Assembly: GCA_023248155.1 (NCBI GenBank)
Contig: JAHFFE010000002.1
Location: forward strand, 42,263-106,262
Direction of reading: 5' to 3'
Source: Candidatus Omnitrophota bacterium
GTDB taxonomy: Bacteria > Omnitrophota > Gorgyraeia > 1-14-0-20-64-10
DNA: 64,000 nt
Shown: in pieces, positions 23,314-45,865 of the stretch
How the letters are laid out: each line of letters opens with the position of its first letter
How positions within the stretch are numbered: the stretch's first letter is position 1
Position numbers and translations under genes: made by a program
Notes under the pieces: model-generated
Seen by the model: only the letters and a program-made list of their open reading frames with translations
Database searches by the model: none
Told to the model about the DNA's origin: nothing

Positions 23314-23718
23314 ATGGAAGAAACGCAGAACACTCATATTTTATTGGTGGATGATGAACCGGATTTGGTCCAAATGGTCTCGGTTCGGTTGAAAGCGGCC
23401 GGATACAATGTCGCCGTTGCGTATGACGGGCAGCAGGCGCTCGATTATGTCAAGCAGACGCGGCCGGACATGATTATTCTCGACTTGATGCTGCCGAAGC
23501 TCGATGGCTACAAGGTCTGCCGGCTATTGAAATTCGACGAGCGGACGAAAGGAATTCCGATCCTGATTTTCACGGCGCGCGCGCAGGTGGAAGATGTAAC
23601 GCTGGCGACTGAGTGCGGGGCCGACGCCTACCTGACCAAACCGTTCGAGGCGAAAACGCTGTTGACCAAGATTCAGGATTTAGTCGGGCTGGGCAAGAAA
23701 AACGCGGAACCAAAATAA
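23314..23718 (+). CDS. Single-domain response regulator (CheY-like receiver)
   Basis: ILLVDDEPD…ILDLMLPKLDG…TKPF with the phospho-acceptor Asp. Confidence 0.85.
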   Translation: MEETQNTHILLVDDEPDLVQMVSVRLKAAGYNVAVAYDGQQALDYVKQTRPDMIILDLMLPKLDGYKVCRLLKFDERTKGIPILIFTARAQVEDVTLATECGADAYLTKPFEAKTLLTKIQDLVGLGKKNAEPK

Positions 23719-23735
23719 TCCGGCGAGGGAAACGA

Positions 23736-25382
23736 ATGCCCACCGCGAAAAAGCAGCTTAACCGAAAAGAACTGCGGAGCTGGCTCGCTCAGCTGGATCA
23801 GCAGCTGGATCTGGAAGCGCTGATGAAAGGCTGCTGCGGGATGTTGATTAAGCTGACCGGAGCCGACCGTTGTTCGATTATGGTGCTCGACAGCGATACC
23901 GACCACCTGATCGTCCGCTGGGCGCATGGAAACCGGGTGCAGATGAAGGGCTCCGGCATGAAATTCCGCGTCGGTGAAGGGTTGTGCGGATGGGTGGCCC
24001 GTTCGCAAAAATCATTCTGCTCTTTGGATGCCACGAAAGAAGTCCGTTTCATGCCGCGCGCGCAGCAATCGGGGCAACCGCGCAATTTCAAAGAAGTGCG
24101 CGGCATTTGCTGCACGCCGCTGGTGGTCGACGGACGAACCGTCGGCGTGATCAATTTCTCCAGCTTTGACGCCAAAAAAACCCGCTTCGACTGGATCCGC
24201 AAGGACGAAGTCAAACTGTTTATCGAACGGCTGGCCCGCGTGATTTACCAGGCCGCGCTGCTGCGCGAATCGCAGGCCGTTTCAGAACGGTTCCGGCGGC
24301 AGGCCAAGGCCACCTCGGAGACCGTCGCTCAGGTCAGCCACGAAGTGCGCACGCCGCTGACGCTGGTCACTGAGGCGTCGCAGCAGCTGATTGATGAACT
24401 CGCCGGACCGCTTCAACCCGACCAGAAAAAACTGGTCCATATCATTCAATCCCAATCCCAGCGGATGCTGAAGCTGGTTTCGGAACTGCTCGACATTTCG
24501 CGCATCGAAGCCGGCCGCATGGCGCTGTACCGCGAACCGATGTCGATGGCCGATGCCATCCGCGACGTGGCCGACCGTTACCAGATGCTGGTTTCGCCGC
24601 GCAAACTGATTTTGGAAATCGGACTGGTCCCGCTGGTTTACGGCGACAAGACGCGGCTGGCGCAGATCGTCGAGAACCTGCTCGGCAATGCCGTTAAATT
24701 CACGCCGCCGGAGGGTTCAATTACCATTGGACTGCGCGAAAAAGGCAAAACGGCCGAGATCTCCGTGCAGGATACCGGCGCCGGCATTCCGCACAAGCAA
24801 CTCAAACTGCTGTTCCAGCGTTTTTCAAAACTCAAAGTGGCCGCCGGCATTAATGTGCGCGGCACCGGTTTGGGGCTGATGATCGTCAAGGAAGTGGCGC
24901 AGATGCACGGCGGGGCGGTACGCGTTGACTCGGAACCGGGCAAGGGAACCCGCTTTTCGGTGACGCTGCCGCTGTATTCGTCGACGCTGGCGCTCTCGGA
25001 AGAGTTCCGTGTGATGCGCGAGCAATCGTCGCGCGAAGGGCGGGATCTGGCGATTCAATTGCTGCGCCTGAAAAAAGATCCGAAAGCCACGCTCAATGAA
25101 ATCCGTGAAATGCTGGTCAAGCATGTGTCGCGCGAAGACCGCATTTTGGAAAACCCCGACGGCGGCCTGGTGATTTTGTCGGTCGTCGACCCGGAAGGGT
25201 TCGCGGCGATGCGAAAAAGAATCGATCAGGTATTTGCCGCGAATTTGCCGGCGGTCAATTCCCGCGATTTAGGCTGGGGGTGGGCGCTGGTTCCAAAAGA
25301 GGGAACGACGCTGACCATGGTGCTGCCGATTGCCGAGCGCCGCGCGCAGGAAGAAAAATTGGAGGCCGCGAAAAGCCGATGA
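23736..25382 (+). CDS. GAF-domain sensor histidine kinase
   Basis: Start at ATG 23736 (MPTAKKQLNRKEL…), in frame with track ORF 23613. GAF-like N-terminus, H-box VSHEVRTPLT, then N, G1 (DTGAGI) and G2 (GTGLGL) boxes. Confidence 0.85.
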   Translation: MPTAKKQLNRKELRSWLAQLDQQLDLEALMKGCCGMLIKLTGADRCSIMVLDSDTDHLIVRWAHGNRVQMKGSGMKFRVGEGLCGWVARSQKSFCSLDATKEVRFMPRAQQSGQPRNFKEVRGICCTPLVVDGRTVGVINFSSFDAKKTRFDWIRKDEVKLFIERLARVIYQAALLRESQAVSERFRRQAKATSETVAQVSHEVRTPLTLVTEASQQLIDELAGPLQPDQKKLVHIIQSQSQRMLKLVSELLDISRIEAGRMALYREPMSMADAIRDVADRYQMLVSPRKLILEIGLVPLVYGDKTRLAQIVENLLGNAVKFTPPEGSITIGLREKGKTAEISVQDTGAGIPHKQLKLLFQRFSKLKVAAGINVRGTGLGLMIVKEVAQMHGGAVRVDSEPGKGTRFSVTLPLYSSTLALSEEFRVMREQSSREGRDLAIQLLRLKKDPKATLNEIREMLVKHVSREDRILENPDGGLVILSVVDPEGFAAMRKRIDQVFAANLPAVNSRDLGWGWALVPKEGTTLTMVLPIAERRAQEEKLEAAKSR

Positions 25383-25795
25383 CCATTCTAATCATTGAAG
25401 ATGAAGCGCAGGTCCGTGAATTGCTCGGCCGCCGCCTGCAGGCGCACAGCTACGAAACGCAGGAGGCCGAGAACGGCAAGGTCGGCCTTGAAAAGGCCAA
25501 ACAGCTGAAGCCCGAACTGATCATCCTTGATTTGAATATGCCGGAGATCGACGGAATCCAGGTTTATCAGCGGCTGCGCCAGGATCCGGACACCGCGAAG
25601 ATTCCGGTTCTTTTTCTGACCGCATTGTCGGCCGGTGGAACGATGACCGAGCAAAGCCTGGCGATTATCGCTTCGGCGAAGCACCGTGTGCAGTTGACGG
25701 GAAAATATGCCGTCATGGGTAAACCATATGATGCTCAGCAGCTGTTGGAGACGATCCGAAAACTGCTGGGGCAGGAGAGCGCGCCGGCGGTATGA
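25379..25795 (+). CDS. Single-domain response regulator
   Basis: ATGA overlap with the kinase. ILIIEDEAQ…ILDLNMPEIDG…K. Confidence 0.85.
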   Translation: MTILIIEDEAQVRELLGRRLQAHSYETQEAENGKVGLEKAKQLKPELIILDLNMPEIDGIQVYQRLRQDPDTAKIPVLFLTALSAGGTMTEQSLAIIASAKHRVQLTGKYAVMGKPYDAQQLLETIRKLLGQESAPAV

Positions 25796-27465
25796 AATCG
25801 ACCAAGCAGACCGATGAACGGCTCGTTGAAGAAGGGCTGATTACGCCGGAACAGCTGGCGAAGGCCCGCTCGGAAGCGCTGCGCGGCGGAGGCACCGTGC
25901 GCGAAGCGATCCTGCGAATGCGGTTTGTCGAGCCGTCGCGCATGGCCGACTGGCTCAGCCAGCAGCTGCAGATTCCGCGCGTGGAATTAAAATCGTACGT
26001 GATCGATTCGAAAGTTCTGCAGCTTGTTCCCGAGGCGCTGGCCCGCAAGCATCGCGTCATCCCGTTGTTTAAGGTAGGTAATTCGCTCACCGTTGCCACG
26101 GCCGATCCGCTGAATTTAATCGCGCTCGACGAACTGCATTTGAAAACCGCCAAAACGATCGAACCGGTTGTCGCCACCGATCAGGAAATTAATCAGGCGC
26201 TGGCCGATTATTACGGCACGAAAGGGCGCGTCGATGAGCTGGTGTCGGGGATGCCGGCCGAGACCGCCGCGGCGGAACTTCCTTCCGGCGCCGCTGCCGC
26301 GCAGAAAGCGTCGGACCCGCCTGTGGTGCAGCTGGTTAATCTGCTGCTCACCGACGCGGCCCGTTACCGCGCGTCAGATATTCACCTGGAACCCGAGCAT
26401 GAGGGGATGCGCGTCCGGTTCCGCATCGACGGAATTTTGCGCGAACAAACGGTGCTGCCCAAATCGCTGGAGCCGGCCGTTGTTTCGCGCATCAAGATTC
26501 TTGCCGGCATGGACATTGCCGACCAGCGCAAACCGCAGGACGGCCGTTTCCGGACGACGCTGGAAGGGCACGAGGTCGATCTGCGTATTTCGGTGATTCC
26601 GTCGATGGACGGAGAAACGGTCGTGATGCGTTTGCTGGATACGCAGGGCTTGCGCCTCGACATGAGCCAGCTGGGCATGGATGCCGACATGTTGGCACGC
26701 TACCAGCAGCTGGTTCAGCGCGCCTGGGGAATTTTGCTGGTGACCGGTCCGACCGGTTCCGGAAAAACGACGACACTGTATTCGACGCTGGCGTCGCTCA
26801 ATGCCGTCGAGCGCAACATCGTCACGATTGAAGATCCAGTCGAATATCGTTTGTCCGGCATCCGGCAGATTCAGGTGAATTCATCCGTGCAGCTGACGTT
26901 CGCCACCGGCTTGCGTTCGATTTTGCGTCAGGACCCCAACATCATCATGGTCGGAGAAATCCGTGACCGCGAAACGGCCGAGATCGCGATTCAATCGGCG
27001 TTGACGGGTCATATGGTTTTCTCGACGCTGCATACCAATGACGCGGCCACCGCCATTACACGGCTGCTCGACATGGGCATCGAGCCGTTCCTGGTCAGTT
27101 CCAGCTTGATCGGCGTGTTGGCCCAGCGGCTGGTGCGCACACTTTGTCCCGAATGCAAAACCGACGATCCGGCGCAGGAAGAAAAAGCGCGCAAGATGGG
27201 GTTCACCGGGACGGGTCACTGGATGAAAGCGGCCGGCTGCCGCCAATGCGGAAAAACCGGATACCGCGGCCGGATCGCGCTGTTTGAGCTGATGCCGATG
27301 GATGAAACGATTCAGAAAATGACGCTGGCCAAAACGTCGGCGTCCGATATCGCCACGCACGCGCATTCCGCCGGCATGAAAGCGCTGCGCGAAGACGGGC
27401 TGGCCAAGGCGGCGGCCGGAATCACGACGATCGACGAGGTGTTCCGCGTCGTCTCGGAGGCGTAA
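25792..27465 (+). CDS. Type IV pilus/T2SS assembly ATPase (GspE/PilB family)
   Basis: GspE N-terminal domain, Walker A VTGPTGSGKTTTLYS, Asp and His boxes, tetracysteine CPEC…CRQC zinc motif. Confidence 0.9.
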   Translation: MKSTKQTDERLVEEGLITPEQLAKARSEALRGGGTVREAILRMRFVEPSRMADWLSQQLQIPRVELKSYVIDSKVLQLVPEALARKHRVIPLFKVGNSLTVATADPLNLIALDELHLKTAKTIEPVVATDQEINQALADYYGTKGRVDELVSGMPAETAAAELPSGAAAAQKASDPPVVQLVNLLLTDAARYRASDIHLEPEHEGMRVRFRIDGILREQTVLPKSLEPAVVSRIKILAGMDIADQRKPQDGRFRTTLEGHEVDLRISVIPSMDGETVVMRLLDTQGLRLDMSQLGMDADMLARYQQLVQRAWGILLVTGPTGSGKTTTLYSTLASLNAVERNIVTIEDPVEYRLSGIRQIQVNSSVQLTFATGLRSILRQDPNIIMVGEIRDRETAEIAIQSALTGHMVFSTLHTNDAATAITRLLDMGIEPFLVSSSLIGVLAQRLVRTLCPECKTDDPAQEEKARKMGFTGTGHWMKAAGCRQCGKTGYRGRIALFELMPMDETIQKMTLAKTSASDIATHAHSAGMKALREDGLAKAAAGITTIDEVFRVVSEA

Positions 27466-27469
27466 ACCG

Positions 27470-28699
27470 ATGCCGACGTTTGCGTATCAGGCGCGCGATG
27501 AAGCGGGGCGGCTGGTGAAAGGGTTTCAGGAGGCGGAATCCCAGACTCTGCTGCTGCAGCAATTGCGCAAGGCCGGTTATTTAATCACGCGGCTGGAAGA
27601 AAAGACACAACAGAGTACGAGCTGGCTGCCTGACCTTCAGTTTGGAAAAAGGGTCGACGGGCAGGACCTGCTGATGGCTATTTTACAGCTGGCGAATCTG
27701 GTCGAGGCCGGACTTCCGCTGTTAACGGCGCTCAATACCGTTTGCGAGCAGTGGGCCGACGGTCCGCTGAAAGAGGCGCTCAGCGCCGTCGTGCGCGACA
27801 TTGAATCGGGCGAGAAATTTTCGCAGGCGCTCAAAAAGCATCCGCATATTTTCCCGAAATTAATGGTGAGCATGGTGATGGTCGGCGAGCAGACCGGAAA
27901 ATTGGACCTGGTGCTGATGCGGTTCTCGTCGTTTCTCGAACGGGACATGGCCGAACGCAGGGCGCTTCAGTCGGCTCTGAGTTATCCGATTTTGCTGTTT
28001 TGCGCCAGCATCGTGCTGGTGCTTTTCGTGGTGACGTTTGTGGTGCCGCAGTTTTCCGAGTTGTTCGTCAAGGCCGGCGTGCGGATGCCGGCGCCCACGC
28101 TCTTTTTATGCGGCGTCGGAAAATCGATCCGGCAATACTGGTGGCTCATGATTCTTTCGGTGCCGGCGGCCGGGGTTGGGGTTCCTCTGCTGATGCGCCG
28201 TCCCGATGTTCGCGCGTTCTGCGACCGATGGATTCTGAAAGTTCCGATATTCGGGAAGGTGATTTATCAGACGGTCATCCTGCGTTTCGCGCGCAGCCTG
28301 GCCACGCTGGTGGCCAGCGGCATCTCGATTTTGAGCGCGCTGGATACCGCCCGGGAAATGGTCGACAACCAGATGATCGAAGCCGAGCTCAAGCGCGTGC
28401 GCAGCGCCGTCGAGCGCGGCGAGAAACTGTCGGCGGCGCTGGCTGCCGGGAAAATTTTTCATCCCGACGTGGTGCAGATGGTCAAGGCCGGCGAAGAATC
28501 CGGCCGCATGGACGCGATGCTCGACAAGGTCGCCGATTTTTATGAGATGCGCGTTAATTTTTCATTGAAACAAATGGTTACTTTTCTGGAACCGCTTTTA
28601 TTAATGGGGATGGGAGGCATCGTCGTTTTAATTATGGCGTCTTTGATCTTGCCGATGTTTGATATGGTCAAGGTCTTACAAAATGGAGGGTTACGCTGA
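27470..28699 (+). CDS. Type IV pilus/T2SS inner-membrane platform protein (GspF/PilC)
   Basis: Two T2SSF repeats, three TM segments. ATGA overlap with the following gene. Confidence 0.85.
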   Translation: MPTFAYQARDEAGRLVKGFQEAESQTLLLQQLRKAGYLITRLEEKTQQSTSWLPDLQFGKRVDGQDLLMAILQLANLVEAGLPLLTALNTVCEQWADGPLKEALSAVVRDIESGEKFSQALKKHPHIFPKLMVSMVMVGEQTGKLDLVLMRFSSFLERDMAERRALQSALSYPILLFCASIVLVLFVVTFVVPQFSELFVKAGVRMPAPTLFLCGVGKSIRQYWWLMILSVPAAGVGVPLLMRRPDVRAFCDRWILKVPIFGKVIYQTVILRFARSLATLVASGISILSALDTAREMVDNQMIEAELKRVRSAVERGEKLSAALAAGKIFHPDVVQMVKAGEESGRMDAMLDKVADFYEMRVNFSLKQMVTFLEPLLLMGMGGIVVLIMASLILPMFDMVKVLQNGGLR

Positions 28700-29172
28700 T
28701 GAAAATGAGGCAACGTAAAATAAGCAAAGGGTTCACGCTGGTCGAGTTGATCATCGTGATCGCCGTGATCGCGATTTTGCTGGGCATCGCGCTTCCGCGG
28801 CTGCGCGGCATGATTGACGAAGGCAACTCCGCCCGCGCCGCTGCCGAAGTCCGCGCGCTGCAGGCGGCAGTCGAGTCTTTCTTTATCCATAACGCCCGCG
28901 TTTATCCGGCGGCCGGCGCGACCTGGGAAAACGCGTTAGTGGCCGCGAGCCCGCGGCTGATTGGCGCCGCGCTGCTCGATCCGTTTAACGGGGCTGTTCA
29001 ATATCAGTACGCGCTATCGGCCAACGGCCAGTTTTATGTAATCTCGTCGTTCGGCCCCAACAGGGCTGCAACGATTATCGGCATTGATAACACCGGCGCG
29101 GTCACTCCTGCGGGAGCTACCGGAGACGATATCTTCAGCTCGAACGGCACTCCGGGTAACGGCGGGTTTTAA
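28699..29172 (+). CDS. GspG-like major (pseudo)pilin with prepilin peptidase site
   Basis: KGFTLVELIIVIAVIAILLGIALP N-methylation motif. AAAEVRALQAAVESFFIHNARVYP resembles the GspG alpha-beta loop. Confidence 0.8.
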   Translation: MKMRQRKISKGFTLVELIIVIAVIAILLGIALPRLRGMIDEGNSARAAAEVRALQAAVESFFIHNARVYPAAGATWENALVAASPRLIGAALLDPFNGAVQYQYALSANGQFYVISSFGPNRAATIIGIDNTGAVTPAGATGDDIFSSNGTPGNGGF

Positions 29173-30153
29173 TTGGTAGTGGAGTTACTGCGAGGGAAGG
29201 GACGGCTCCAGCTGGTGCTTGGGGCCGTCCTGACCTGCGGCGTGGGGATCGCGTTGTCAATGGCCGCGCTGATGGTGCCCGAGCGTTTTGATGCCTGGCG
29301 CATCTACGCGTTCGGCGTGGGCGTTATTTTTTTCATGCTGGCCTATCTGATTTCCAGCTTTCGGCACGCTTCTAAAATCGAAACACTGGTTCTTGAACGG
29401 ACCGCTGAGTTGCAGGCGGCCAACCTGCGTCTGCTTGAGTTGGGAAAAATCAAGGATGAATTTGTCGCGGTGGTCAGCCATGAACTGCGCACGCCGATCG
29501 CCGTGATGCGCGAGGGGATCTGCCAGATGCAGGAAGGGGTTTGCGGTCCGATTACTCTGGAACAGCAGGCAACCATCGCGATCACATTAAGAAATCTCGA
29601 GCGGCTGCGCGAGCTGGTTGAGGATATGCTCGATATTTCCAAAATTGAAGCGGGAAAAATTGTTTTACAGCATGAAAAATTCGATTTTATTCAACTGGTT
29701 CGGGAAATCCAGAATTCTTTTTTGCCCCGTTCGCGCGAGAAAGAGATCGGCCTTGAATTGCATTTGCCGGGGCCGCATCTCTGGGTCCGGGCCGACCGCG
29801 CGAAACTGGCGCAGGTATTAACGAACCTGGTCAGCAACGCCATAAAGTTTACCGATCAGGGCGAGGTGCGCGTGACCGTGGAAGAGGACGCGCAACAGAT
29901 CCGGTGCGCGGTCTCCGACAGCGGCATCGGCATTTCGGACGAGAACATGCCCAAGCTGTTCCAGAAATTCCAGCAGTTTACGCGTCTCAGCAACGGTGAA
30001 AAAGGCAGCGGTCTGGGCCTGGCCATCTGCAGGGGGTTAATCGATCTGCATCAGGGCCGTCTCTGGGCCGAGTCGTCTTACGGAAAAGGAAGCCGTTTTA
30101 TTTTCAGCATCCCCAAGGGGGAAAACAGGGAGCCGTCCGCCGCCATCCGATGA
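29173..30153 (+). CDS. Membrane-anchored histidine kinase (2 TM, no periplasmic sensor domain)
   Basis: TTG start directly after the pilin stop (ATG 29260 is an alternative). H-box VSHELRTPIA, G1 DSGIGI, G2 GSGLGL. Confidence 0.75.
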   Translation: MVVELLRGKGRLQLVLGAVLTCGVGIALSMAALMVPERFDAWRIYAFGVGVIFFMLAYLISSFRHASKIETLVLERTAELQAANLRLLELGKIKDEFVAVVSHELRTPIAVMREGICQMQEGVCGPITLEQQATIAITLRNLERLRELVEDMLDISKIEAGKIVLQHEKFDFIQLVREIQNSFLPRSREKEIGLELHLPGPHLWVRADRAKLAQVLTNLVSNAIKFTDQGEVRVTVEEDAQQIRCAVSDSGIGISDENMPKLFQKFQQFTRLSNGEKGSGLGLAICRGLIDLHQGRLWAESSYGKGSRFIFSIPKGENREPSAAIR

Positions 30154-31274
30154 ACGAGTCGCCATTTGCCGTCAATCCGTTTTCGCGGGAAATCCGCGTT
30201 TTGCTGATCGAAAACGACCTGGCTGAAGTCCGCCGATTTAAAGAAGTACTCTCCGAGGCGGGAGAGAAATTATTTCCGGTCACCTGGGCCGATCGTATGG
30301 CCGAGGGTTTGAGCCGTATTTCGGGAGATTCCGTTGATCTGATCGCGCTTGGGCTTTCTCTGCCTGACTCGTCAGGAGCGGATCTGTTCGCGCGCGTCCA
30401 CGCGCAGGCGTCGCATCTGCCGATCGTGCTGCTGGTATCGGCCGCGCAGGAAACAGAAGCCCAGCAGGCCGTTCTGGCTGGCGCACAGGATTATCTAATC
30501 AGGGGAAAATGGGAATCGTCGGTTCTTCCGCGCGTATTGCGTTACGCGGTGGAGCGCAAAGCGGTCGAGCGGATGAAAGACGAATTCGTCAGCAGTGTTT
30601 CGCACGAATTGCGCACGCCGCTGGCGATCGTCAAGGAAGGCGTCAGCCTGGTTCTCGACGGAGTTTCCGGTCCGCTTACCGCCGACCAGGATAAAATCCT
30701 GAAAGTCGCCCAGGACAACATCGACCGGCTCGCGCGTATTATCGAGAACCTGCTGGATGTTTCGGAACTGGACCGCGGCCGCATGAAGCTGAAGATTCAG
30801 CCGATCGATATTTTTGATCTGATCCGAAAAAAAGCCGAACAGCTGGCGCCAAAAATCCGCGAGAAGGGCATCGAATTTTCAGTGCAGATCCCTTCTGAAA
30901 AAAAGATGATGGAAGCCGATCCGATCCGCGTCGAACAAATATTAACCAGCCTTTTGGGCAATGCGTTGAAATTCACACGTAAAGGTTCCATCGTGCTGTC
31001 GGTGACCGAAGAACCGGACCGTTTAATCTGCCAAATATCCGATACCGGCATCGGCATTGCGCGCGAAGATCTGCCTAAAATTTTCCGCCGGTTCCAGCAG
31101 TTTGGGCGCAAAGACGGCCCCGGCGAGCAGGGGACCGGGCTGGGACTGTGGCTTTCGCAGCAGTTTATCGAGCTTCATGGAGGATCGGTCTGGGTTGAGA
31201 GCGAACAGGGCCGCGGCACGCGCGTTTTCTTTTCGCTTCCGAAGCCGGTTGTTCCGGCGGTAGAACCGGCATGA
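30150..31274 (+). CDS. Hybrid receiver-histidine kinase (REC + HisKA + HATPase_c)
   Basis: N-terminal receiver (VLLIENDLAE…DLIALGLSLPDS…), then H-box VSHELRTPLA and DTGIGI/GTGLGL boxes. Confidence 0.8.
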   Translation: MNESPFAVNPFSREIRVLLIENDLAEVRRFKEVLSEAGEKLFPVTWADRMAEGLSRISGDSVDLIALGLSLPDSSGADLFARVHAQASHLPIVLLVSAAQETEAQQAVLAGAQDYLIRGKWESSVLPRVLRYAVERKAVERMKDEFVSSVSHELRTPLAIVKEGVSLVLDGVSGPLTADQDKILKVAQDNIDRLARIIENLLDVSELDRGRMKLKIQPIDIFDLIRKKAEQLAPKIREKGIEFSVQIPSEKKMMEADPIRVEQILTSLLGNALKFTRKGSIVLSVTEEPDRLICQISDTGIGIAREDLPKIFRRFQQFGRKDGPGEQGTGLGLWLSQQFIELHGGSVWVESEQGRGTRVFFSLPKPVVPAVEPA

Positions 31275-31663
31275 AAATCCGTCGGAATGCCGGTGGTTTT
31301 ACGCTGCTCGAGATGCTGATCGCGCTGGGCATTTTAATGACGGGTGTTCTTGCGACGGTCTACCTGGTAAGCCGCGGCATTGCCGCGACGAATGATACCG
31401 AGTCCACCGAGCAGGCGCTGGCATTGGCGCAGCAGCGGATGGAAGCGCTTCGCTCGGGCGCTTATGCCGCGATTGTCAACGAACCGCGTGCCGCCGTGGC
31501 CGGCTGGGTTAATTTCGACCGCCAGGTGGTTGTAGCACAGCCGGCCGGTACCGGTGTGAGCAATCAGATTCGCCAGGTCACCGTTACGGTATTTTGGCCG
31601 ACGACCGGCGGCGAGCAGAACCTGACATTAACCACCTATGTCTGCAATGTCGTCAATAACTAG
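31271..31663 (+). CDS. Minor pseudopilin (prepilin-type N-terminal domain)
   Basis: GGFTLLEMLIALGILMTGVL. Confidence 0.75.
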   Translation: MKIRRNAGGFTLLEMLIALGILMTGVLATVYLVSRGIAATNDTESTEQALALAQQRMEALRSGAYAAIVNEPRAAVAGWVNFDRQVVVAQPAGTGVSNQIRQVTVTVFWPTTGGEQNLTLTTYVCNVVNN

Positions 31664-32180
31664 GCGGTCGCGCGGCGTCAGTCTGCTTGAATTGATTTTG
31701 GCGGTTGGTCTTTTTTCTGTACTGCTGATTGCGCTGTTCGGTGTTTACCGGATCATTTTTATCTCGACCACGTCGGTTCAGGACCGGATGCAGCTGCAGC
31801 GGAGCGCCGAGCATGGCCTTGAAAAAGCGATCCGCGATTTGCGTACCGCGGTGGCGCTGCAGAACGATCCGAGCAACGCGATCCGGTACACGCTTCAACA
31901 GGGCGCTGCGCAGAATTCGTTTATTTTATATCTCTACAACGCGGCCGACCCGTTTCTGCCGCCTTACACGCAGCCGACGTATGAACTTCGGCAGGCGCCC
32001 GTCGCCGGCGCGATTGGCGGCGCGTTTGTGTATGGCGCCGGCACGCTGTTGGTGCGCGATGTTCAGCCGCCGCCGGCATCGGTTATTCAGGTTGCCGGAA
32101 CATTGGCAACGCTGGATCTCAGCGTGACGCGGGGAAACGAAACTTACCGTCTGGTTAAACAGGTCAGGCGCAGAAGTTGA
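31638..32180 (+). CDS. Minor pseudopilin (prepilin-type N-terminal domain)
   Basis: RGVSLLELILAVGLFSVLLIAL; overlaps the preceding gene. Confidence 0.65.
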   Translation: MSAMSSITRRSRGVSLLELILAVGLFSVLLIALFGVYRIIFISTTSVQDRMQLQRSAEHGLEKAIRDLRTAVALQNDPSNAIRYTLQQGAAQNSFILYLYNAADPFLPPYTQPTYELRQAPVAGAIGGAFVYGAGTLLVRDVQPPPASVIQVAGTLATLDLSVTRGNETYRLVKQVRRRS

Positions 32181-33073
32181 TGCGCGCCTCTGCGCAGCGC
32201 GGAGTGGCGCTGGTGATGGTGATGGCTTTTTTGATTCTGTTCGCGACGATGGCGACATTTTTTGTTTTCACGGCCTCTGTTTTCGTAAAGAACAGCGGCT
32301 GGGAGCAGGTGGACCACCAGGTATTCTGGATTGCGGAGGCCGGTTTGCAAAAAGCGATTTGGAATTTGAAAACGCCGGTTGCCAGCGGTGGGCGGGGTGA
32401 GCTCTGGACAACGGCTGGAACTCTGGAAAATTTGGCCAATGGGAACTATACGATGGTGGTTGAGGCCTGGGATTACGCACTTGCCGCCAATGGGGCCACT
32501 GCGGTGTCCGTACCACCCACTGTTGTCAATCCCGCTTCTAATGCGATTGATGGCAACGGCGCTACTTTCTGGGAGTCCAGTGGATCACCTGTAATCACTC
32601 AACAAGATTTAATCATCACACTGCCTTATGCGATTACCGTGAATCGGTTGCGGTTCTTAGCGTTTAGTACTCCAGCGTTTCCACAAAACTACATTCCGCG
32701 GGATTATAGTTGGGCTGTTTCCCCAGACAACGCGGTTTGGACGCCTGCTTTACCCGCGATTACCAACAACACCAGTGCTGACAGTGATCTTGCCGTTCCA
32801 CCGGCTTTAGCTGTGGGCGGGCCGGCGGATGTTTTTCCCGCTCAGACGAATGTGCGGTTTGTCCGTTTGCGGACGACGCGGGATGGTGTCGGGGCTCCCG
32901 CGCGCGCGCGTGTCATTGCTCTGGAGATCAACGGCCGGCGGATTACTTCCACGGGCCGGATTACGACCGGCGGGGTTACCATTGCCAGGACTGTCCGCCA
33001 AACGGTTGTCACCGACGACGCGCTTCCTCAAAATCAAGTGGCTTATTACCAGCCCGACTGGACGGAGCAGTAG
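32177..33073 (+). CDS. GspK/PilX-like minor pseudopilin carrying a discoidin (F5/8 type C)-like domain
   Basis: RGVALVMVMAFLILFATMA leader region. Central NAIDGNGATFWESSG…QDLIITL…YSWAVSPDNAVW matches the discoidin-domain pattern. Confidence 0.6.
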   Translation: MMRASAQRGVALVMVMAFLILFATMATFFVFTASVFVKNSGWEQVDHQVFWIAEAGLQKAIWNLKTPVASGGRGELWTTAGTLENLANGNYTMVVEAWDYALAANGATAVSVPPTVVNPASNAIDGNGATFWESSGSPVITQQDLIITLPYAITVNRLRFLAFSTPAFPQNYIPRDYSWAVSPDNAVWTPALPAITNNTSADSDLAVPPALAVGGPADVFPAQTNVRFVRLRTTRDGVGAPARARVIALEINGRRITSTGRITTGGVTIARTVRQTVVTDDALPQNQVAYYQPDWTEQ

Positions 33074-33075
33074 CG

Positions 33076-34653
33076 ATGGCCGAACGAATTTTAGCGCTTG
33101 ATCTGGGAACCGAATCGTTCAAACTGCTGACGGCTGAGGAGCAGGCTGGTTCATGGGTCATCACGCATCTGGGTTCCAAAGAGATTCCTCCCGGCGCCAA
33201 TGACGCGATTCGTCTGCAGGCCTTAAAAGAATTAATCGGCGAGATTCAGTTAAAACAATTCCGCACCGTCGTCAGCGTGCTGGACGATTCTTTTTCATCT
33301 GTGCGCCAGATTTACACGCCGCCGATACCGGCATCGGAACTGCTTTCAGCGGTCCGCTGGGAAATGCAGAATTTTCTGGCGATCCCTCCGGAAGAAACGG
33401 CGGTTGATTTAATTTCTTTGGGCACGGTTGATTTAGGCGGCGTTACCAAACAGAGGCATATCGCGGCGGCGGTCTCCGTCGAGGCGGTCCGCAATCATTG
33501 CGCGCTGCTGGCGTCGGCCGGCATTCGTCCGTCGCAACTGATCCCGAAAAATTTAGCGCTCGCTCTCTGCGCCGAAAAGCTACAGCCGTCTTCGGCCGAT
33601 CTGCCCCGCGTTATTTTGGATATCGGGTCGTCTTCGGCCGAATGCGTCGTGCAGGAAGGGCTGTGGCCGGTGTTTGCGCGCAGAATTCCCGGCGGATCGC
33701 AGGGGCTGACGCGCGAGATGAGCGGCATGATCGTTTCGGGCCAGGGGCAGGTGGCGCTTACGGCCGATGAAGCCGAACAGTTAAAACGCCGCGTCGGGAT
33801 CCCTTCAAGGGACGCCGGAGACCTGGGCGTCAAAGGGATTTCCGGCATGCAGCTTTTTTCGCTGATGCGCGCCTGGCTGGACCGCCTGGCCGTTGAAACC
33901 GAACGCTCGGTCACTTTTTATGGTGAGACTTCCGGCCGCAATGCCGTTGCCGAAATTATTCTGCTGGGCGGCGGCGCCCATCTGCGCGGATTGCCCGAAT
34001 GGCTCTCGGAACGGCTCGGGGTCCGCGTGAGCGTTCCGGCCGGATTAACGGGTGATCAGGCCGTTTTCGGAAAATTTCCGTCTGTCCGGGGCGTGGAATG
34101 CGCTTACGCGGCCGTTCTGGGTGCTGTTTACGGCGAAGGCAAAGGCCTGAATCTTTTACCGGCTGAAATACGCGAAAAAACAAAACGGACGGTTCAACGG
34201 ATGGCGGCCGCGGCGCTGGGCGCCGCTTTCGCGGTGGCGCTGATCGTCGGCGGCGTAGGCTTGCGATTGTATCAGCGTAATTTACGGGGACAGATCGCCG
34301 CGATGGAAATCGAAGCCGCTTCGACTAACCAGCGCTGGGCTGATTTAAAAGAATATTTGTCGGCCCGGAACCGCATTATCTCCGAACCGCGCTGGCGTGA
34401 TTTTTTAATGGAGTTAAGCCAAGCGACCCCCGCTCAAATAAAGCTCTCTTCGTTGACAGTGGATGAAACCCGCCAGGTCACGCTGCGCGGAGTTATTCAT
34501 GCCGGGCCGCGCTCCGTGCAAGATCTGATGGCCGATTATTTGCGCGTGCTGCATGGCCGCTCATTAACTCAGGTCGAATTGCGACGGACCCGCCGTACGG
34601 ATAATGATTCGGCTGAGGCGGAGTTTGAAATCGGAGGCCGCTTACTGCCATGA
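33076..34653 (+). CDS. PilM-PilN fusion protein (actin-like ATPase + bitopic N component)
   Basis: N-terminal ILALDLGTESFKLL (PilM/FtsA-like). Internal TM (AAAALGAAFAVALIVGGVGL) followed by a PilN-like coiled coil. Confidence 0.7.
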   Translation: MAERILALDLGTESFKLLTAEEQAGSWVITHLGSKEIPPGANDAIRLQALKELIGEIQLKQFRTVVSVLDDSFSSVRQIYTPPIPASELLSAVRWEMQNFLAIPPEETAVDLISLGTVDLGGVTKQRHIAAAVSVEAVRNHCALLASAGIRPSQLIPKNLALALCAEKLQPSSADLPRVILDIGSSSAECVVQEGLWPVFARRIPGGSQGLTREMSGMIVSGQGQVALTADEAEQLKRRVGIPSRDAGDLGVKGISGMQLFSLMRAWLDRLAVETERSVTFYGETSGRNAVAEIILLGGGAHLRGLPEWLSERLGVRVSVPAGLTGDQAVFGKFPSVRGVECAYAAVLGAVYGEGKGLNLLPAEIREKTKRTVQRMAAAALGAAFAVALIVGGVGLRLYQRNLRGQIAAMEIEAASTNQRWADLKEYLSARNRIISEPRWRDFLMELSQATPAQIKLSSLTVDETRQVTLRGVIHAGPRSVQDLMADYLRVLHGRSLTQVELRRTRRTDNDSAEAEFEIGGRLLP

Positions 34654-35159
34654 AACTTAAAAACCCGAAGCCGGCCGCCGCCGCGGGTCTTATTTTTTCC
34701 ATACTGATTCTGGTGATCGGTTATCTGCTGCCTGCGGCCGACATTCAGGCTCTATTGCGCCAGAAAAAACAGATTCAAATGACCGTGGATCAAGCAACTG
34801 ACGCCGTCCGTCCCGCGCGCGGTTCTGAATTCCGTGAACTGCCTTTACAAGAAGAAACTCCGGAGTTGTTTAAGCGTTTTTACCGGCTGGCTGAACGGCA
34901 CCGGGTTCGCGTGATGGAGTTCTCGCCGCGCATCGTTTTGCCCGGAACGGCCGATCAACCGGCCGTTCTTCCCATCGATATTCAGATGGAGGCCGCTTAT
35001 TCCGACGCGGGAGACTTTATCGGAAAGCTGACGACGGATCCGGAAATGGGGATTGTTTCCGTCCGCCGAATCGATATGGTTCCCGATGGCGAAAATAACG
35101 GACAGCTGCGGCTGTCCGTCGTGGTAGAGTTTTGTTTGAAAGCCGATAGCAATGCGTGA
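34650..35159 (+). CDS. PilO/GspM-like bitopic protein
   Basis: N-terminal TM, coiled coil, ferredoxin-like C-terminal part. Position directly after pilMN. Confidence 0.5.
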   Translation: MKLKNPKPAAAAGLIFSILILVIGYLLPAADIQALLRQKKQIQMTVDQATDAVRPARGSEFRELPLQEETPELFKRFYRLAERHRVRVMEFSPRIVLPGTADQPAVLPIDIQMEAAYSDAGDFIGKLTTDPEMGIVSVRRIDMVPDGENNGQLRLSVVVEFCLKADSNA

Positions 35160-35610
35160 TCCAAAACAAAAAATTATCCTGACGGTTTTAGGGATTGTGC
35201 TCGTCGTGGTTTGGACGCGGGCGTTCATGATGAAGCCGGTCTATCGCCATAATCCGCCGCCGGTTTCTTTTCATGCCTCCGGCAGGGTTGTTGCGCCCCG
35301 GCCTTTAGCCAAAGAATCGCCGGATGAAGAACCGCCTGTCCTGAGATGGAAACGTGATCCGTTCGCTGTTTCCGAGATAGTACTGTCTTCCGGGCCGGAG
35401 AAATCAACTTTGTCGTCGGGGGCCAATGCAAAGCCGGCCGCCCCTCTGCGCCTGGAGGGGATTTTATGGGATGCCCGCAAACCGGCCGCGCTGATTAATG
35501 ACACGCTGGTTGAGGTCGGTTCTTCCGTGGGCGGCTGGAAAGTGGTTGAAATCAGGGAAGACCGCGTGAGTCTTTCCGATGGACAATCCACCCAAACTCT
35601 TGAAATCTAG
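35152..35610 (+). CDS. PilP/GspC-like protein
   Basis: N-terminal TM, Pro-rich linker. C-terminal LRLEGILWDARKPAALINDTLVEVGSSVGGWKVVEIREDRVSL matches the PilP/GspC HR-domain pattern. Confidence 0.5.
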   Translation: MRDPKQKIILTVLGIVLVVVWTRAFMMKPVYRHNPPPVSFHASGRVVAPRPLAKESPDEEPPVLRWKRDPFAVSEIVLSSGPEKSTLSSGANAKPAAPLRLEGILWDARKPAALINDTLVEVGSSVGGWKVVEIREDRVSLSDGQSTQTLEI

Positions 35611-36133
35611 CCGCCATCCCTTTTTTTGTTTGGCTGCTTTTCTGGTTTTCACGCAGATTGTTTTGTTTTCCGGAACGTGCGCGCGTGCCGCCGATGTTCC
35701 GTGGACGCTTCAGGAGCTGTCTGCCTATTACCGCGGTCCCGATCAAATCGCCCAATTTCTCAGAAAAAAAATCGTGCTGGTTTCCGACAGGCAATTGTTC
35801 GGCTGCGACGATTACTGGCAGTCTCCGGCCGAAACATTGCGAAGCGGAAAAGGCGATTGCGAAGATTACGCGTTGTTGGCCGAAGCGCTGTTGCGCCGGC
35901 AGAAAATTCCGGCCTGGGTTTTTTCGGTCTACGGCCCGGGCGGGTACGCGCATACGGTCTGCGCGTTTAAACAAAATGGCCGATACAATGTCATCAATGT
36001 GGATCAACTGATTTCGTATCAGGCCGAGTCCTTTAAAGAACTTGCCGGGAAGCTTCATCCTCGATGGGAATGGGCCGCGGTGGCCCGAAGAGCCGGTCAC
36101 CGCGGCAAAGCACTGCGCCGGATTACTCCGTAA
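35579..36133 (+). CDS. Secreted transglutaminase-like cysteine protease
   Basis: Signal peptide. [16 protein letters not shown]…YAHTVCAF…NVD gives the Cys-His-Asp transglutaminase-like core. Last gene of the pilus cluster. Confidence 0.65.
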
Positions 36134-40528: not shown

Positions 40529-41926
40529 TTAATTACCGGCGCCGGTATTGCGCGCCAGTGCGAAGAACGATTCGGCCACATCTTCGGCCACCTGCCCGTT
40601 GCGGATCAAATCCATGATGGAACGCTCCAGCGTGTACATCTTGGCGTTTCCACCGGTTTCAATCACGGAAGGCAGCTGGGAAAGAGTGCCGTTGCGGATA
40701 ATGTTCCGGCCGGCCGAGGTGGGCACGAATACCTCGGTGGCGAGTGCCAGCCCGCCCTCAAGCGCTTGTTCGCGCGGAATCAGGTACTGCGTCAAGACTC
40801 CCTGAAGACAGCTGGCCAGCTGGAAGGTTGCTTGCTGGCGCTGTTCCGGCGAGCAAATAGTCGCGAACCGGTCGATCGCCTGCACGGTGTTGGTGGCGTG
40901 GAACGACGCGAGCACCAGCGTGCCGGTTTCAGCCGCGTTGAGAACTACCTGCGCCGTTTCAGCGTCATCGACCTCACCGACGACAATGACATCGGGGTCC
41001 TGCCGCAGCGCGCGGCGCACGGCCTCGGCGAATGACAGCGTATCGGAACCCACCTCGCGCTGTTTGATCACCGCTTTTTTGTTTTGGTGAATATATTCAA
41101 TCGGCCGCTCCAGGCAGATGACGATGGCATCGCGATCTTCGTTGATCTGTTCCACCAGGCTGTTGAGCGTCGTTGTTTTTCCGGACCCCGTCGGGCCAAC
41201 CACCAGAATCAGGCCGCTGTTTTTGCGCGTCCAGTCAATGACTACCGACGGAAGCCCCAGTTTTTCCCAATGGGTTACTTTCGCCGGGATACTGCGGATT
41301 GCTGTCTCGACCTGGCCGCGCTGCCAATGCACATTCAGGCGGAACCGTTGCGTGACCGAGATCGAGTAGGCCAGATCCATCTCCCGCTGTTTCTCAAACA
41401 TGCAGATCTGCTCATCGGACATGACACTATAGACCAGCGAACGGATCTCGCCGGGTTTCAAAATTGGAAACTTCATCGGCTTGAGCCGTCCGCGCACGCG
41501 CGCGATCGGCGGGCTGTTCGTGGTTAAATGCAGGTCGGAACCGCCCATTTTGATTAATTCTTCCAGCAGGTTGCGGATATCCATCGTTTCCAGCCGCTGC
41601 AAGATTTCGATGGCGCTGGAAGGATCGATTCTTTCGAACTGCAGGCCAAGCCAATATTTTTGCGCCGGGATTTTTTCTTCCACGCGAATGACGCGGCAGT
41701 TGGCCAGCAATGTTTGATTGTACCCGGGAACATGCAGCTGCAACCGTATCGCCGCGCCGATTTCCACAGGGGAAGCGGTGTTAATGAGCGCGCCGGTTGA
41801 GCTGACATTAACGGTGGTGGAGGGAAGCAGTACTCCGAAAGGAGCACCGTCTTTCAGCAGCTGATACGCTGCCACATAGGCCAGTTGGGCGCGATACGCG
41901 CGCGATGTTTCAGTAGTGTTCGCCAT
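40529..41926 (-). CDS. PilZ-domain/PilT-family retraction ATPase fusion
   Basis: N-terminal ~110 aa contain RAYRA (RxxxR) and NVSSTG ((D/N)xSxxG) c-di-GMP-binding PilZ motifs. C-terminal part is PilT-like (Walker A VVGPTGSGKTTTL, Asp box, His box). Confidence 0.75.
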   Translation of the reverse strand: MANTTETSRAYRAQLAYVAAYQLLKDGAPFGVLLPSTTVNVSSTGALINTASPVEIGAAIRLQLHVPGYNQTLLANCRVIRVEEKIPAQKYWLGLQFERIDPSSAIEILQRLETMDIRNLLEELIKMGGSDLHLTTNSPPIARVRGRLKPMKFPILKPGEIRSLVYSVMSDEQICMFEKQREMDLAYSISVTQRFRLNVHWQRGQVETAIRSIPAKVTHWEKLGLPSVVIDWTRKNSGLILVVGPTGSGKTTTLNSLVEQINEDRDAIVICLERPIEYIHQNKKAVIKQREVGSDTLSFAEAVRRALRQDPDVIVVGEVDDAETAQVVLNAAETGTLVLASFHATNTVQAIDRFATICSPEQRQQATFQLASCLQGVLTQYLIPREQALEGGLALATEVFVPTSAGRNIIRNGTLSQLPSVIETGGNAKMYTLERSIMDLIRNGQVAEDVAESFFALARNTGAGN

Positions 41927-44056: not shown

Positions 44057-44641
44057 ATGAGTGACGCGGAGCTGGTTGAACAAGCGCGTGCCGGAGACCG
44101 GCAGGCATTTGATCAACTGATGCAACGCTATGAGCGCGAAATGATCGGCGTGGCCTATCGAATGCTGGGCCACTCCGAAGACGCGGTCGATTTGGCACAG
44201 GAGGTGTTCTTGCGCGCCTGGCGCGGGCTCGGCCAGTTTCGCGGCGAAGCGTCGTTTCGCAGCTGGCTTTACCGGATCGCGCTCAATCTGGCGCGCAACA
44301 AACGCCGGTGGTACGCGCGCCATCGGATTGCTTCGATGGTTTCATTAAGCCCGTCCGACGAAGAGACCGAAGAAGGGGACCCTGCGCCGGTTGTACCGAT
44401 CGCTGACCCCTCGACGGATCCGCGTGCCGAGGCGCAGGCGAGTCAGTTTCAGGAAGCGGTGCGGCAGGCGTTGGAAAAACTTCCGGCGGAATTTCGGGAA
44501 ACGGTGATATTAAGGGATATTCAACAGTTGTCGTATGAGGAAGTCGCGCAAGCGACCGGACAACCGGTTGGAACGGTCCGGTCGCGGTTATCCCGCGGCC
44601 GGCATTTGCTGCGGGAAGCGTTAAAAGGAATTTATCCATGA
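44057..44641 (+). CDS. ECF (group IV) sigma-70 factor
   Basis: Region 2 (…DLAQEVFLRAWRGLGQFRG…SWLYRIALNLARN) and region 4 HTH (LSYEEVAQATGQPVGTVRSRLSRGR). Confidence 0.9.
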   Translation: MSDAELVEQARAGDRQAFDQLMQRYEREMIGVAYRMLGHSEDAVDLAQEVFLRAWRGLGQFRGEASFRSWLYRIALNLARNKRRWYARHRIASMVSLSPSDEETEEGDPAPVVPIADPSTDPRAEAQASQFQEAVRQALEKLPAEFRETVILRDIQQLSYEEVAQATGQPVGTVRSRLSRGRHLLREALKGIYP

Positions 44642-45591: not shown

Positions 45592-45598
45592 ATTTTTG

Positions 45599-45624: not shown

Positions 45625-45653
45625 GCATCAGTAGAAAAGGGAGGAATAAACCA

Positions 45654-45863: not shown

Positions 45864-45865
45864 AA

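What the first reader, a model, noticed from the sequence alone, without database searches (positions are those of the whole stretch)
23314..36133. T4P/T2SS-hybrid pilus cluster with no secretin, three interleaved two-component modules and a terminal transglutaminase-like protease
GspE/PilB, GspF/PilC and a GspG-like pilin are followed by a histidine kinase and a hybrid receiver-kinase that split the pilin genes from three minor pseudopilins, then PilMN(fused)-PilO-PilP. A GAF-kinase and two CheY-like response regulators sit upstream. No PilQ/GspD secretin and no prepilin peptidase lie in the cluster. A secreted transglutaminase-like Cys protease sits in the position a secretin would occupy. 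The PilM-PilN fusion and the discoidin-domain pseudopilin (32177-33073, a possible carbohydrate-binding tip adhesin) are individually uncommon.
Basis: partly seen in the sequence, partly recalled or inferred. Interest (0 to 1): 0.6.

Follow-up and report, generated by a model that had tools for sequence, protein, structure and literature searches.

The report
Omnitrophota type IV pilus operon
This is the standard type IV pilus gene cluster of an uncultured Omnitrophota bacterium, with built-in signalling genes and a sugar-binding tip subunit. Its outer-membrane pore gene is missing from the locus but is probably encoded elsewhere, so it is a lineage-typical variant and not a new kind of machine.

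Summary
Fifteen tightly coupled + strand genes (23314-36133) encode two CheY-like regulators, three histidine kinases, a PilB-type ATPase, a PilC/GspF platform and a GspG-like major pilin. They also encode three minor pilins in GspI/J/K order, a PilM-PilN fusion, PilO, a small PilP/GspC-HR-like protein and a transglutaminase-like Cys protease. No secretin or prepilin peptidase was found in the 64-kb window.

The same core recurs in about 16 related loci, mostly labelled Omnitrophota, so the PilM-PilN fusion and the discoidin pilin are the norm in this lineage. The ATPase, platform and PilM are closest to type IVa pilus proteins. A PilZ-PilT retraction ATPase lies 4.4 kb away. The gene order and pilin set look like type II secretion.

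The parts
23314..23718 (+). RR1, single-domain (CheY-like) response regulator
   Evidence: Response_reg 103.8 bits, no output domain. Acidic pocket and phospho-acceptor Asp present.
23736..25382 (+). Histidine kinase with GAF sensor, no membrane segment apparent by eye, plus an unassigned ~130-aa C-terminal extension
   Evidence: GAF_2, HisKA and HATPase_c. 59% identical homologue at the same place in L002 and L009.
25379..25795 (+). RR2, single-domain response regulator, translationally coupled to the ATPase gene
   Evidence: Response_reg 76.3 bits. DVU0259/DivK-type best NCBIfam hit. 4-nt overlaps on both sides.
25792..27465 (+). PilB-type extension ATPase (PilB/GspE family)
   Evidence: T2SSE 450 bits + MshEN. 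TIGR02538 PilB 605 vs TIGR02533 GspE 603 bits. Best solved relative is M. xanthus PilB, 523 bits over full length.
27470..28699 (+). PilC/GspF platform protein
   Evidence: T2SSF x2. GspF 348 vs PilC 297 bits. Best solved relative is M. xanthus PilC, 229 bits.
28699..29172 (+). Major pilin, GspG-like, class III signal peptide (KG|FTLVE)
   Evidence: N_methyl 33.5 bits. GspG N-terminal match 41.6 bits. Homologues in L042 and L044 hit T2SSG.
29173..30153 (+). Membrane histidine kinase with two N-terminal hydrophobic segments and almost no external loop
   Evidence: HisKA + HATPase_c. Sequence read directly. Present in L002, L013 and L043, absent in L006 and L042.
30150..31274 (+). Histidine kinase with an N-terminal pseudo-receiver domain
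   Evidence: Response_reg 46 bits + HisKA + HATPase_c. Phospho-acceptor Asp replaced by Gly (His in L002) and DD pocket degenerate.
31271..31663 (+). Minor pilin 1 (PilV/GspI-like), GG|FTLLE
   Evidence: N_methyl 27.7 bits. PilV 34 bits and GspI 28 bits.
31638..32180 (+). Minor pilin 2 (GspJ position), RG|VSLLE
   Evidence: N_methyl 21.7 bits. Conserved at 41-53% identity in relatives.
32177..33073 (+). GspK-position modular minor pilin carrying a CBM32/discoidin module. N-terminus RG|VALVM lacks Glu5.
33076..34653 (+). Natural PilM-PilN fusion (GspL-like architecture)
   Evidence: PilM_2 residues 8-320 and PilN residues 443-474. The PilN 'GLNLLP' motif at 357-362 is conserved at the junction (G357, N359, L361 and P362 invariant). 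One hydrophobic segment about 376-400. GspL 30.8 bits. Best solved relative is Thermus PilM.
34650..35159 (+). PilO
   Evidence: PilO 29.7 bits, cut-off 22.
35152..35610 (+). PilP/GspC-HR/GspB-like protein: membrane anchor, disordered linker, ~50-aa beta domain
   Evidence: AF2 C-terminal domain pLDDT ~90. Foldseek top hits are PilP, GspC HR, GspB and PulC HR at probability 0.87-1.0. Family of 5494 representatives, of which 107/150 hit T2SSB and 70/150 hit T2SSC. The homologue in L046 is followed by a secretin.
35579..36133 (+). Exported transglutaminase-like cysteine protease (BTLCP/LapG-like), an accessory gene
   Evidence: Transglut_core 30.9 bits and Peptidase_C93 27.9 bits. Partial LapG match 43 bits. 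Cys94/His125/Asp142 invariant in 5 homologues. Present in L002, L006, L009 and L013 only.
40529..41926 (-). PilZ-PilT: retraction-type ATPase with N-terminal PilZ domain. It lies outside the finding's coordinates but is probably part of the system.
   Evidence: pilT_fam 368 bits, above cut-off 319. PilZ 33.8 bits. Same relative position in L002.

Best explanation
This is the lineage-typical type IVa-like pilus operon of an Omnitrophota bacterium with an outer membrane.

**Proposed mechanism**
- A PilB-type ATPase and a PilC platform polymerise a GspG-like major pilin. They are held in an alignment complex made of a PilM-PilN fusion, PilO and a PilP/GspC-HR-like protein.
- Assembly is primed by a GspI/J/K-like trio of minor pilins.
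- The K-position subunit lacks Glu5 and carries a CBM32 lectin module. It should sit at the filament tip and bind glycans on a partner cell or particle (inferred).
- The nearby PilZ-PilT would retract the filament, possibly under c-di-GMP control (inferred).
- The embedded kinases and the two CheY-like regulators have no DNA-binding output. They most likely tune the motor or alignment proteins directly (inferred).
- The prepilin peptidase must be encoded elsewhere, because all four pilins keep class III cleavage sites.
- The secretin was detached from the locus in this clade and is probably also encoded elsewhere. The PilP-like module would dock onto its N0 domain (inferred).
- The transglutaminase-like protease is an optional add-on of unknown substrate.
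For: - **Components and coupling:** domain calls and tight gene coupling.
- **T4aP affinity:** the motor, platform and PilM are closest to T4aP proteins, and a PilT-family ATPase above its cut-off lies 4.4 kb away and is syntenic in L002.
- **Conservation:** the core E-F-pilin-I-J-K-MN-O-P recurs in about 16 loci down to 28% PilMN identity, mostly labelled Omnitrophota.
- **PilP-like protein:** fold and family links to PilP/GspC HR/GspB, and a secretin lies directly after its homologue in L046.
- **Outer membrane:** ShlB/POTRA TpsB genes lie next to the cluster in L010, L043 and L044.
- **Literature:** PulL is a PilM+PilN fusion and T2SS derives from T4aP (PMC10191384). Modular adhesive pilins are widespread (PMC8179133). 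T4aP has been reported across Omnitrophota (PMC10066038).
Against: - No secretin or prepilin peptidase could be shown for this genome. Only 64 kb of a 350-kb contig was readable.
- None of 15 relatives covered downstream has a secretin within about 10 kb.
- Foldseek E-values for the PilP-like domain are weak (0.025-0.6) because the domain is small.
- The gene order and pilin set are closer to T2SS than to textbook T4aP.
- No experiment exists for any member.
Confidence: 0.65

Rival explanations
1. This is a truly secretin-independent system. The clade has lost the pilus secretin. The filament either crosses the outer membrane by another route or works as a periplasmic piston, and the PilP-like protein has been repurposed.
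For: - No secretin in the window or in 15 related loci, while the one unfused relative keeps it.
- The slot after PilP is filled by varied genes: protease, TpsB/TpsA or a regulator.
- A Phycisphaerae pilus cluster also lacks an adjacent secretin.
Against: - The HR-like domain stays strongly conserved, with motifs shared with the secretin-linked homologue.
- Pilus genes are commonly scattered in genomes (background knowledge).
- Omnitrophota do encode secretins of other systems: RcpA and gspD are reported in PMC10066038 and 10.1101/2023.11.21.568195.
- In other bacteria, filaments made without a secretin stay trapped in the periplasm (PMC10191384).
Confidence: 0.15
2. This is a type II secretion system, not an adhesive pilus. 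A short pseudopilus pushes folded exoproteins out, and the lectin-bearing K subunit recognises glycosylated cargo or the cell wall.
For: - Gene order E-F-G-I-J-K-L(MN)-M(O) is collinear with gsp operons.
- The major pilin N-terminus is GspG-like, and the K subunit has a GspK-like N-terminus without Glu5.
- The L015 homologue of the K subunit has a true T2SSK domain.
- The platform scores GspF above PilC.
Against: - A PilT-family ATPase is syntenic, whereas T2SS lack PilT (PMC10191384).
- The ATPase aligns over its full length best with T4aP PilB.
- PilM is complete and PilM-like, with GspL scoring only 30.8 bits against a cut-off of 65.
- No GspC PDZ domain, no GspH and no GspD.
Confidence: 0.15
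3. The transglutaminase-like protease is a functional core part of the machine. It would replace the secretin or process or cross-link pilins.
For: - It is co-transcribed, with a 32-nt overlap with the PilP-like gene.
- It has an intact Cys-His-Asp triad and a signal peptide.
- It occupies the secretin position of L046.
Against: - It is present in only 4 of 15 relatives.
- A 184-aa soluble enzyme cannot form an outer-membrane channel.
- The pilins carry standard prepilin-peptidase sites, which are cleaved on the cytoplasmic face.
Confidence: 0.05

Closest known systems
Type IVa pilus machines (Myxococcus, Thermus, Pseudomonas: PilB/C/M/N/O/P/Q/T)
   Same: - PilB-type ATPase, PilC, PilM, PilO and a PilP-fold protein.
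- A PilT-family ATPase.
- Class III signal pilins.
- A tip set of minor pilins.
   Different: - PilM and PilN are one polypeptide.
- The major pilin is GspG-like.
- No PilY1-type tip protein; a lectin-bearing pilin is present in its place.
- Secretin and PilD are not in the locus.
- Kinases are embedded in the operon.
- PilT carries a PilZ domain.
Type II secretion systems (gspC-O operons)
   Same: - Gene order E-F-G-I-J-K-L-M.
- GspL-like fused architecture.
- GspK-like Glu5-less cap subunit.
- GspC/GspB-type HR domain.
   Different: - No GspD, no GspH, and no PDZ domain on the C-like protein.
- A PilT-family ATPase is present.
- The motor and PilM sequences are closer to T4aP.
- The K-subunit alpha-domain is replaced by CBM32.
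Modular pilins (S. sanguinis PilB vWA, PilC lectin; Raynaud et al. 2021, PMC8179133)
   Same: A pilin module presents a grafted adhesive domain, with carbohydrate binding predicted.
   Different: - The module here is CBM32/discoidin.
- It appears to be inserted between pilin strands, as the extra domain is in GspK. This is read from the order of secondary-structure elements in the model and was not tested further.
- The N-terminus lacks a detectable N_methyl motif.
LapG / BTLCP periplasmic cysteine proteases
   Same: Signal peptide, Cys-His-Asp triad, and Peptidase_C93 just above its threshold.
   Different: - Only 43 bits against the LapG cut-off of 320.
- No LapD partner in the window.
- It is linked to a pilus operon instead of a type I secreted adhesin.
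PilS-PilR pilin-sensing two-component system
   Same: A membrane kinase is encoded directly next to the major pilin gene.
   Different: - No sigma-54-type or any DNA-binding regulator.
- Only CheY-like receivers.
- The kinase repertoire varies between relatives and is replaced by GGDEF-EAL in L045.

Membership tests
Type IVa pilus system | PilB-type extension ATPase and PilC platform | tested here: met
   The scores are below the NCBIfam equivalog cut-offs, but the best relatives are full-length T4aP proteins.
Type IVa pilus system | PilM, PilN and PilO alignment proteins | tested here: met
   PilM_2 and PilO are above cut-offs. PilN is present as a fused C-terminal part with a conserved NLLP motif.
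Type IVa pilus system | PilP-type protein | tested here: met
   Met by fold and family links only. The protein has a membrane anchor and not a lipoprotein signal.
Type IVa pilus system | PilT retraction ATPase | tested here: met
   TIGR01420 at 368 bits, above cut-off 319, located at 40529-41926(-).
Type IVa pilus system | PilQ secretin (in diderms) | tested here: not met
   None in the 64-kb window or in 15 related loci. The rest of the genome could not be read.
Type IVa pilus system | PilD prepilin peptidase | tested here: not met
   No Peptidase_A24 hit in the window ORFs scanned. The genome-wide test is not possible with these tools. The pilins keep G|F/V...E5 sites, so a peptidase is required.
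Type II secretion system | GspD secretin and GspC with HR + PDZ domains | tested here: not met
   No secretin. The C-like protein has only the HR-type domain.
Type II secretion system | GspL and GspM | tested here: inconclusive
   The fused M-N architecture matches GspL. However, GspL scores 30.8 bits against a cut-off of 65, and there is no T2SSM hit for the PilO-like protein.
Type II secretion system | No retraction ATPase | tested here: not met
   A PilT-family gene is syntenic.
Modular pilin | N-terminal pilin helix plus a grafted domain not specific to pilus biology | tested here: met
   AF2 helix 2-64 plus a CBM32 module. Pfam F5_F8_type_C is above its cut-off.
BTLCP / LapG | Cys-His-Asp triad, export signal and family HMM threshold | tested here: met
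   Triad invariant. Peptidase_C93 scores 27.9 bits against a cut-off of 27.
BTLCP / LapG | LapG equivalog score and LapD partner | tested here: not met
   43 bits against a cut-off of 320. No LapD-like gene in the window.
PilS-PilR regulation | DNA-binding (sigma-54 activator) response regulator | tested here: not met
   RR1 and RR2 are receiver-only.

The most novel reading that the evidence does not exclude
A whole clade of diderm Omnitrophota, marked by the PilM-PilN fusion, has dispensed with the pilus secretin. It would run a retractile type IV filament that either exits through a different outer-membrane route or acts beneath it. The PilP-like module would be retargeted and the post-PilP slot reused for lineage-specific surface effectors (protease, two-partner secretion).
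Probability: 0.15. Interest if true: 0.75.

Novelty: new variant of a known kind. Interest (0 to 1): 0.4.

Why it matters
- **Role in the phylum.** Omnitrophota are ultra-small, uncultured bacteria thought to attach to or prey on other cells. Their pili are the presumed attachment organ (PMC10066038).
- **Concrete anatomy.** This locus suggests a lectin-tipped filament, a retraction motor with a c-di-GMP-type sensor domain, and signalling proteins wired into the operon.
- **Evolutionary form.** It preserves a form between type IVa pili and type II secretion: T4aP-like sequences with gsp-like order and a GspL-like fusion. That is useful for reconstructing how the two machines diverged.
- **If no secretin exists.** If the secretin is truly absent genome-wide, it would overturn the rule that diderm type IV filaments need one.

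Tried and rejected
- **Reading beyond the window.** Exact-protein look-ups returned only a 31-kb ENA contig that ends after the pilin gene. The 350-kb NCBI contig was not retrievable.
- **First genome scan.** The scan with the ATPase alone found nothing.
- **PDB profile searches for the 152-aa protein.** These gave only a marginal GspC hit, E 0.42. Fold search was needed.
- **Looking for secretin seeds.** Downstream ORFs in the Phycisphaerae, Myxococcota and Bacteroidales loci gave none. The Bacteroidales 'PilM' hits are FtsA next to FtsZ. The secretin upstream in Myxococcota L027 turned up only later, by tblastn.
- **Metagenome scans.** The scan with the PilMN alignment added loci but no secretin.
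- **Literature supplements.** The Seymour et al. supplement tables on T4P loci were truncated. Kizina et al. 2022 is not held.
- **Candidate divergent secretin.** The 639-aa unannotated ORF at 46992-48911 was considered and rejected. It has a signal peptide and a C-terminal membrane anchor, no family hit, and no tblastn match to the secretin probes.
- **Candidate peptidase.** The conserved 384-aa membrane protein upstream (22013-23167) was considered as a hidden prepilin peptidase. It has no family hit and no peptidase motif was apparent by eye.
- **Promoter and terminator scans.** These were no better than shuffled sequence.


Full report
**What is there**

Between 23314 and 36133 the + strand carries 15 ORFs. 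Their ends overlap by 1-32 nt or are separated by at most 18 nt, so they read as one operon.

Pfam and NCBIfam assign them as follows:
- a receiver-only regulator (RR1);
- a GAF histidine kinase;
- a second receiver-only regulator (RR2);
- a PilB/GspE ATPase (T2SSE 450 bits, plus MshEN);
- a PilC/GspF platform;
- a 157-aa pilin with a KG|FTLVE class III signal;
- a kinase with two membrane segments;
- a REC-HisKA-HATPase kinase;
- two small pilins (GG|FTLLE and RG|VSLLE);
- a 298-aa protein with an F5/8 type C domain (30.6 bits, cut-off 28.2);
- a 525-aa PilM protein with a PilN-like tail;
- PilO;
- a 152-aa protein without any family hit;
- a 184-aa transglutaminase-like protein (Transglut_core 30.9 bits, Peptidase_C93 27.9 bits).

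I scanned nearly all of the picked ORFs of 90 aa or more across the 64-kb window; two short ones (104 and 90 aa) were left out. None matches Secretin or Peptidase_A24.

**Where it comes from**

The window is part of a 350,776-bp NCBI contig. I could only reach a 31-kb ENA copy that ends after the pilin gene.

The PilM-PilN protein has very few relatives in 5.8 billion proteins. A profile scan of GTDB genomes places its closest relatives in MAGs titled 'Candidatus Omnitrophota bacterium' or loosely labelled 'uncultured Planctomycetia'. The discoidin pilin's homologues that carry NCBI names are 'discoidin domain-containing protein [Candidatus Omnitrophica]'.

GC content is even across the locus. 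The flanking genes keep their order in a relative with only about 40% protein identity. These are a fatty-acid desaturase and a 384-aa membrane protein upstream, then cyclophilin, class II ribonucleotide reductase, DUF1802 and PilZ-PilT downstream. This is a stable chromosomal locus and not an island.

**How conserved it is**

I compared about 16 distinct related loci.
- The core order ATPase - platform - major pilin - three minor pilins - PilMN fusion - PilO - 152-aa protein is present in every locus whose contig covers that span. PilMN identity goes down to 28%.
- Signalling genes always accompany the core, but they vary in number, type and position. L042 has none between the pilin genes. 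L043 has one kinase. L009 and L010 have kinases with other sensor domains. L045 has a GGDEF-EAL protein in that slot.
- The gene after the 152-aa protein also varies. It is the transglutaminase-like protease in 4 of 15 relatives (L002, L006, L009, L013). It is a ShlB-type TpsB plus a very large ORF in three (L010, L043, L044); in L010 that ORF carries a TPS domain. It is a regulator in two, and housekeeping genes elsewhere.
- None of the 15 has a secretin within reach.

The discoidin pilin alone has at least 160 homologous clusters.

**What kind of machine**

By sequence, the motor parts are type IVa-pilus-like.
- The ATPase aligns over its full length best with M. xanthus PilB (523 bits), then Geobacter PilB and Thermus PilF, ahead of Vibrio GspE.
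- The platform is closest to M. xanthus PilC.
- PilM is closest to Thermus and Myxococcus PilM.
- A PilT/PilU-family ATPase above its curated cut-off lies 4.4 kb downstream on the other strand and is syntenic in L002. It scores 368 vs 319 bits and has an N-terminal PilZ domain.

By organisation, the locus is gsp-like.
- The order E-F-G-I-J-K-L-M is that of type II secretion operons.
- The major pilin's N-terminal half matches GspG.
- The first minor pilin matches PilV/GspI.
- The third has a GspK-type N-terminus without Glu5. Its counterpart in L015 has a true T2SSK domain.
- The PilM-PilN fusion keeps the PilN 'GLNLLP' peptide at the junction. It has the architecture that defines GspL/PulL (PMC10191384).

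The 'hybrid' label is fair. However, the syntenic PilT-family ATPase and the T4aP-like motor make a retractile pilus more likely than a secretion pseudopilus.

**The 152-aa protein and the secretin question**

AlphaFold gives an N-terminal membrane helix, a disordered linker and a confident C-terminal beta domain (pLDDT about 90). Foldseek's best PDB matches are all of one kind:
- M. xanthus, P. aeruginosa and N. meningitidis PilP;
- the GspC HR domain in complex with GspD;
- PulC HR;
- Dickeya GspB.

Probabilities are 0.75-1.0, but E-values are weak because the domain is small. An exhaustive profile search finds 5494 representative proteins of the same size and layout. Of the best 150, 107 hit Pfam T2SSB and 70 hit T2SSC. 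From background knowledge of the families, these are modules that dock onto secretin N0 domains.

One more distant relative, L046, has the same gene order but separate PilM, PilN-like and PilO-like genes. There the homologue of this protein is followed directly by a 444-aa Secretin_N + Secretin protein. That homologue shares the RDPF and GI.WD..P.AIIN motifs.

I used this secretin and a Myxococcota one as tblastn probes. They find each other but nothing in the window or in any fused-PilMN locus. The lineage also has an outer membrane, as shown by the POTRA/ShlB transporters next to the cluster.

The simplest reading is that the ancestral locus ended with a secretin. In the PilMN-fusion clade the gene left the locus, and the conserved PilP-like module still serves a secretin encoded elsewhere. 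I could not test the rest of any genome, so true loss remains possible (about 15%).

A prepilin peptidase must exist elsewhere in any case, because all four pilins keep cleavage sites.

**The discoidin pilin**

An alignment-based AlphaFold model is confident (pLDDT 91, pTM 0.82). It has a 63-residue N-terminal helix typical of pilins, followed by beta structure.
- Foldseek matches CBM32 modules at E 3e-8 (chitosan-binding modules, NanJ, EndoD, GH84/GH89 CBM32s).

It is a modular pilin in the sense of Raynaud et al. (PMC8179133). It sits in the K (cap) position, so a glycan-binding pilus tip is the natural inference. The size and content of this subunit change between relatives: 269-298 aa with CBM32, 484 aa in L048, 397 aa without a recognisable module in L002, and a GspK domain in L015. 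This fits an adhesin that is swapped between lineages.

**Signalling genes**

There are three kinases but only two phosphorylatable receivers. The receiver fused to the third kinase has Gly (His in L002) at the phospho-acceptor position and a degenerate acidic pocket. Neither free regulator has an output domain. RR2 overlaps the ATPase start codon. I infer post-translational control of extension and retraction and not transcriptional control. The two-helix kinase next to the pilin gene is reminiscent of pilin-sensing PilS, but no PilR-type partner is present.

**The protease**

It has a signal peptide, an invariant Cys94-His125-Asp142 triad and a partial LapG-like match. It overlaps the preceding gene. 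However, it is present in a minority of relatives and cannot form a channel. It is an accessory periplasmic or secreted enzyme of unknown substrate. The resemblance to a secretin is positional only.

**Novelty and score**

Pilus clusters in Omnitrophota have been counted as T4aP before (PMC10066038), and secretion or pilus loci near giant genes have been noted (10.1101/2023.11.21.568195; 10.64898/2026.06.07.730766). In the papers I could search, I found no description of these features:
- the PilM-PilN fusion;
- the gsp-like order;
- the CBM32 cap pilin;
- the embedded kinases;
- the detached secretin.

I rate it a new variant of a known kind, with moderate interest (0.4). It would rise sharply if complete genomes prove to lack a secretin.

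Noticed in passing
window 40529-41926 (-): A PilT/PilU-family ATPase with an N-terminal PilZ domain, a possible c-di-GMP-gated retraction motor. It is conserved at the same relative position in L002.
   Followed up: partly
window 55255-64000 (+): An ORF of more than 2,914 aa that runs off the end of the window. Its only hit is a weak Peptidase_M48 match near the N-terminus. It is consistent with the giant genes reported for Omnitrophota.
   Followed up: no
window 44057-46738 (+): An ECF sigma factor, a zf-HC2 anti-sigma factor and an MbnB/TglH/ChrH-type (DUF692) peptide-modifying enzyme in a row. This may be a small RiPP-like locus.
   Followed up: no
window 23736-25382, residues ~415-548 of the GAF kinase; L009 5945-7774: An unassigned ~130-aa C-terminal extension after the HATPase domain. 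It recurs at the end of a differently built kinase in L009.
   Followed up: no
L010 12448-19420; L043 14739-20810; L044 13714-17797: A two-partner secretion pair lies directly after the PilP-like gene in three relatives: a ShlB/POTRA TpsB plus a very large TpsA-like ORF. This suggests a recurring link between the pilus locus and large surface exoproteins.
   Followed up: partly
L045 8071-9489: A GGDEF-EAL protein sits between the minor pilin genes, where the window has histidine kinases. The signalling slot is conserved but its content is interchangeable.
   Followed up: no
L044 8741-9493: One called gene of 250 aa carries both a receiver domain and an N_methyl pilin motif. It is either a real receiver-pilin fusion or two overlapping genes merged by the gene caller; they are separate in L002.
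   Followed up: no
L046 7677-12087: A more distant relative (ATPase 45% identical) with unfused PilM, 220-aa and 192-aa proteins, a PilP-like protein and a 444-aa secretin, in the same overall order. It is the only related locus with a secretin. No fused-PilMN locus examined has a secretin nearby.
   Followed up: yes
window 22013-23167 (+): A 384-aa polytopic membrane protein with no family hit, directly upstream of the operon. A 369-aa gene with no family hit lies next to a fatty-acid desaturase at the corresponding place in L043, and the same protein is present in L001, which is a copy of the window region. Its function is unknown.
   Followed up: partly
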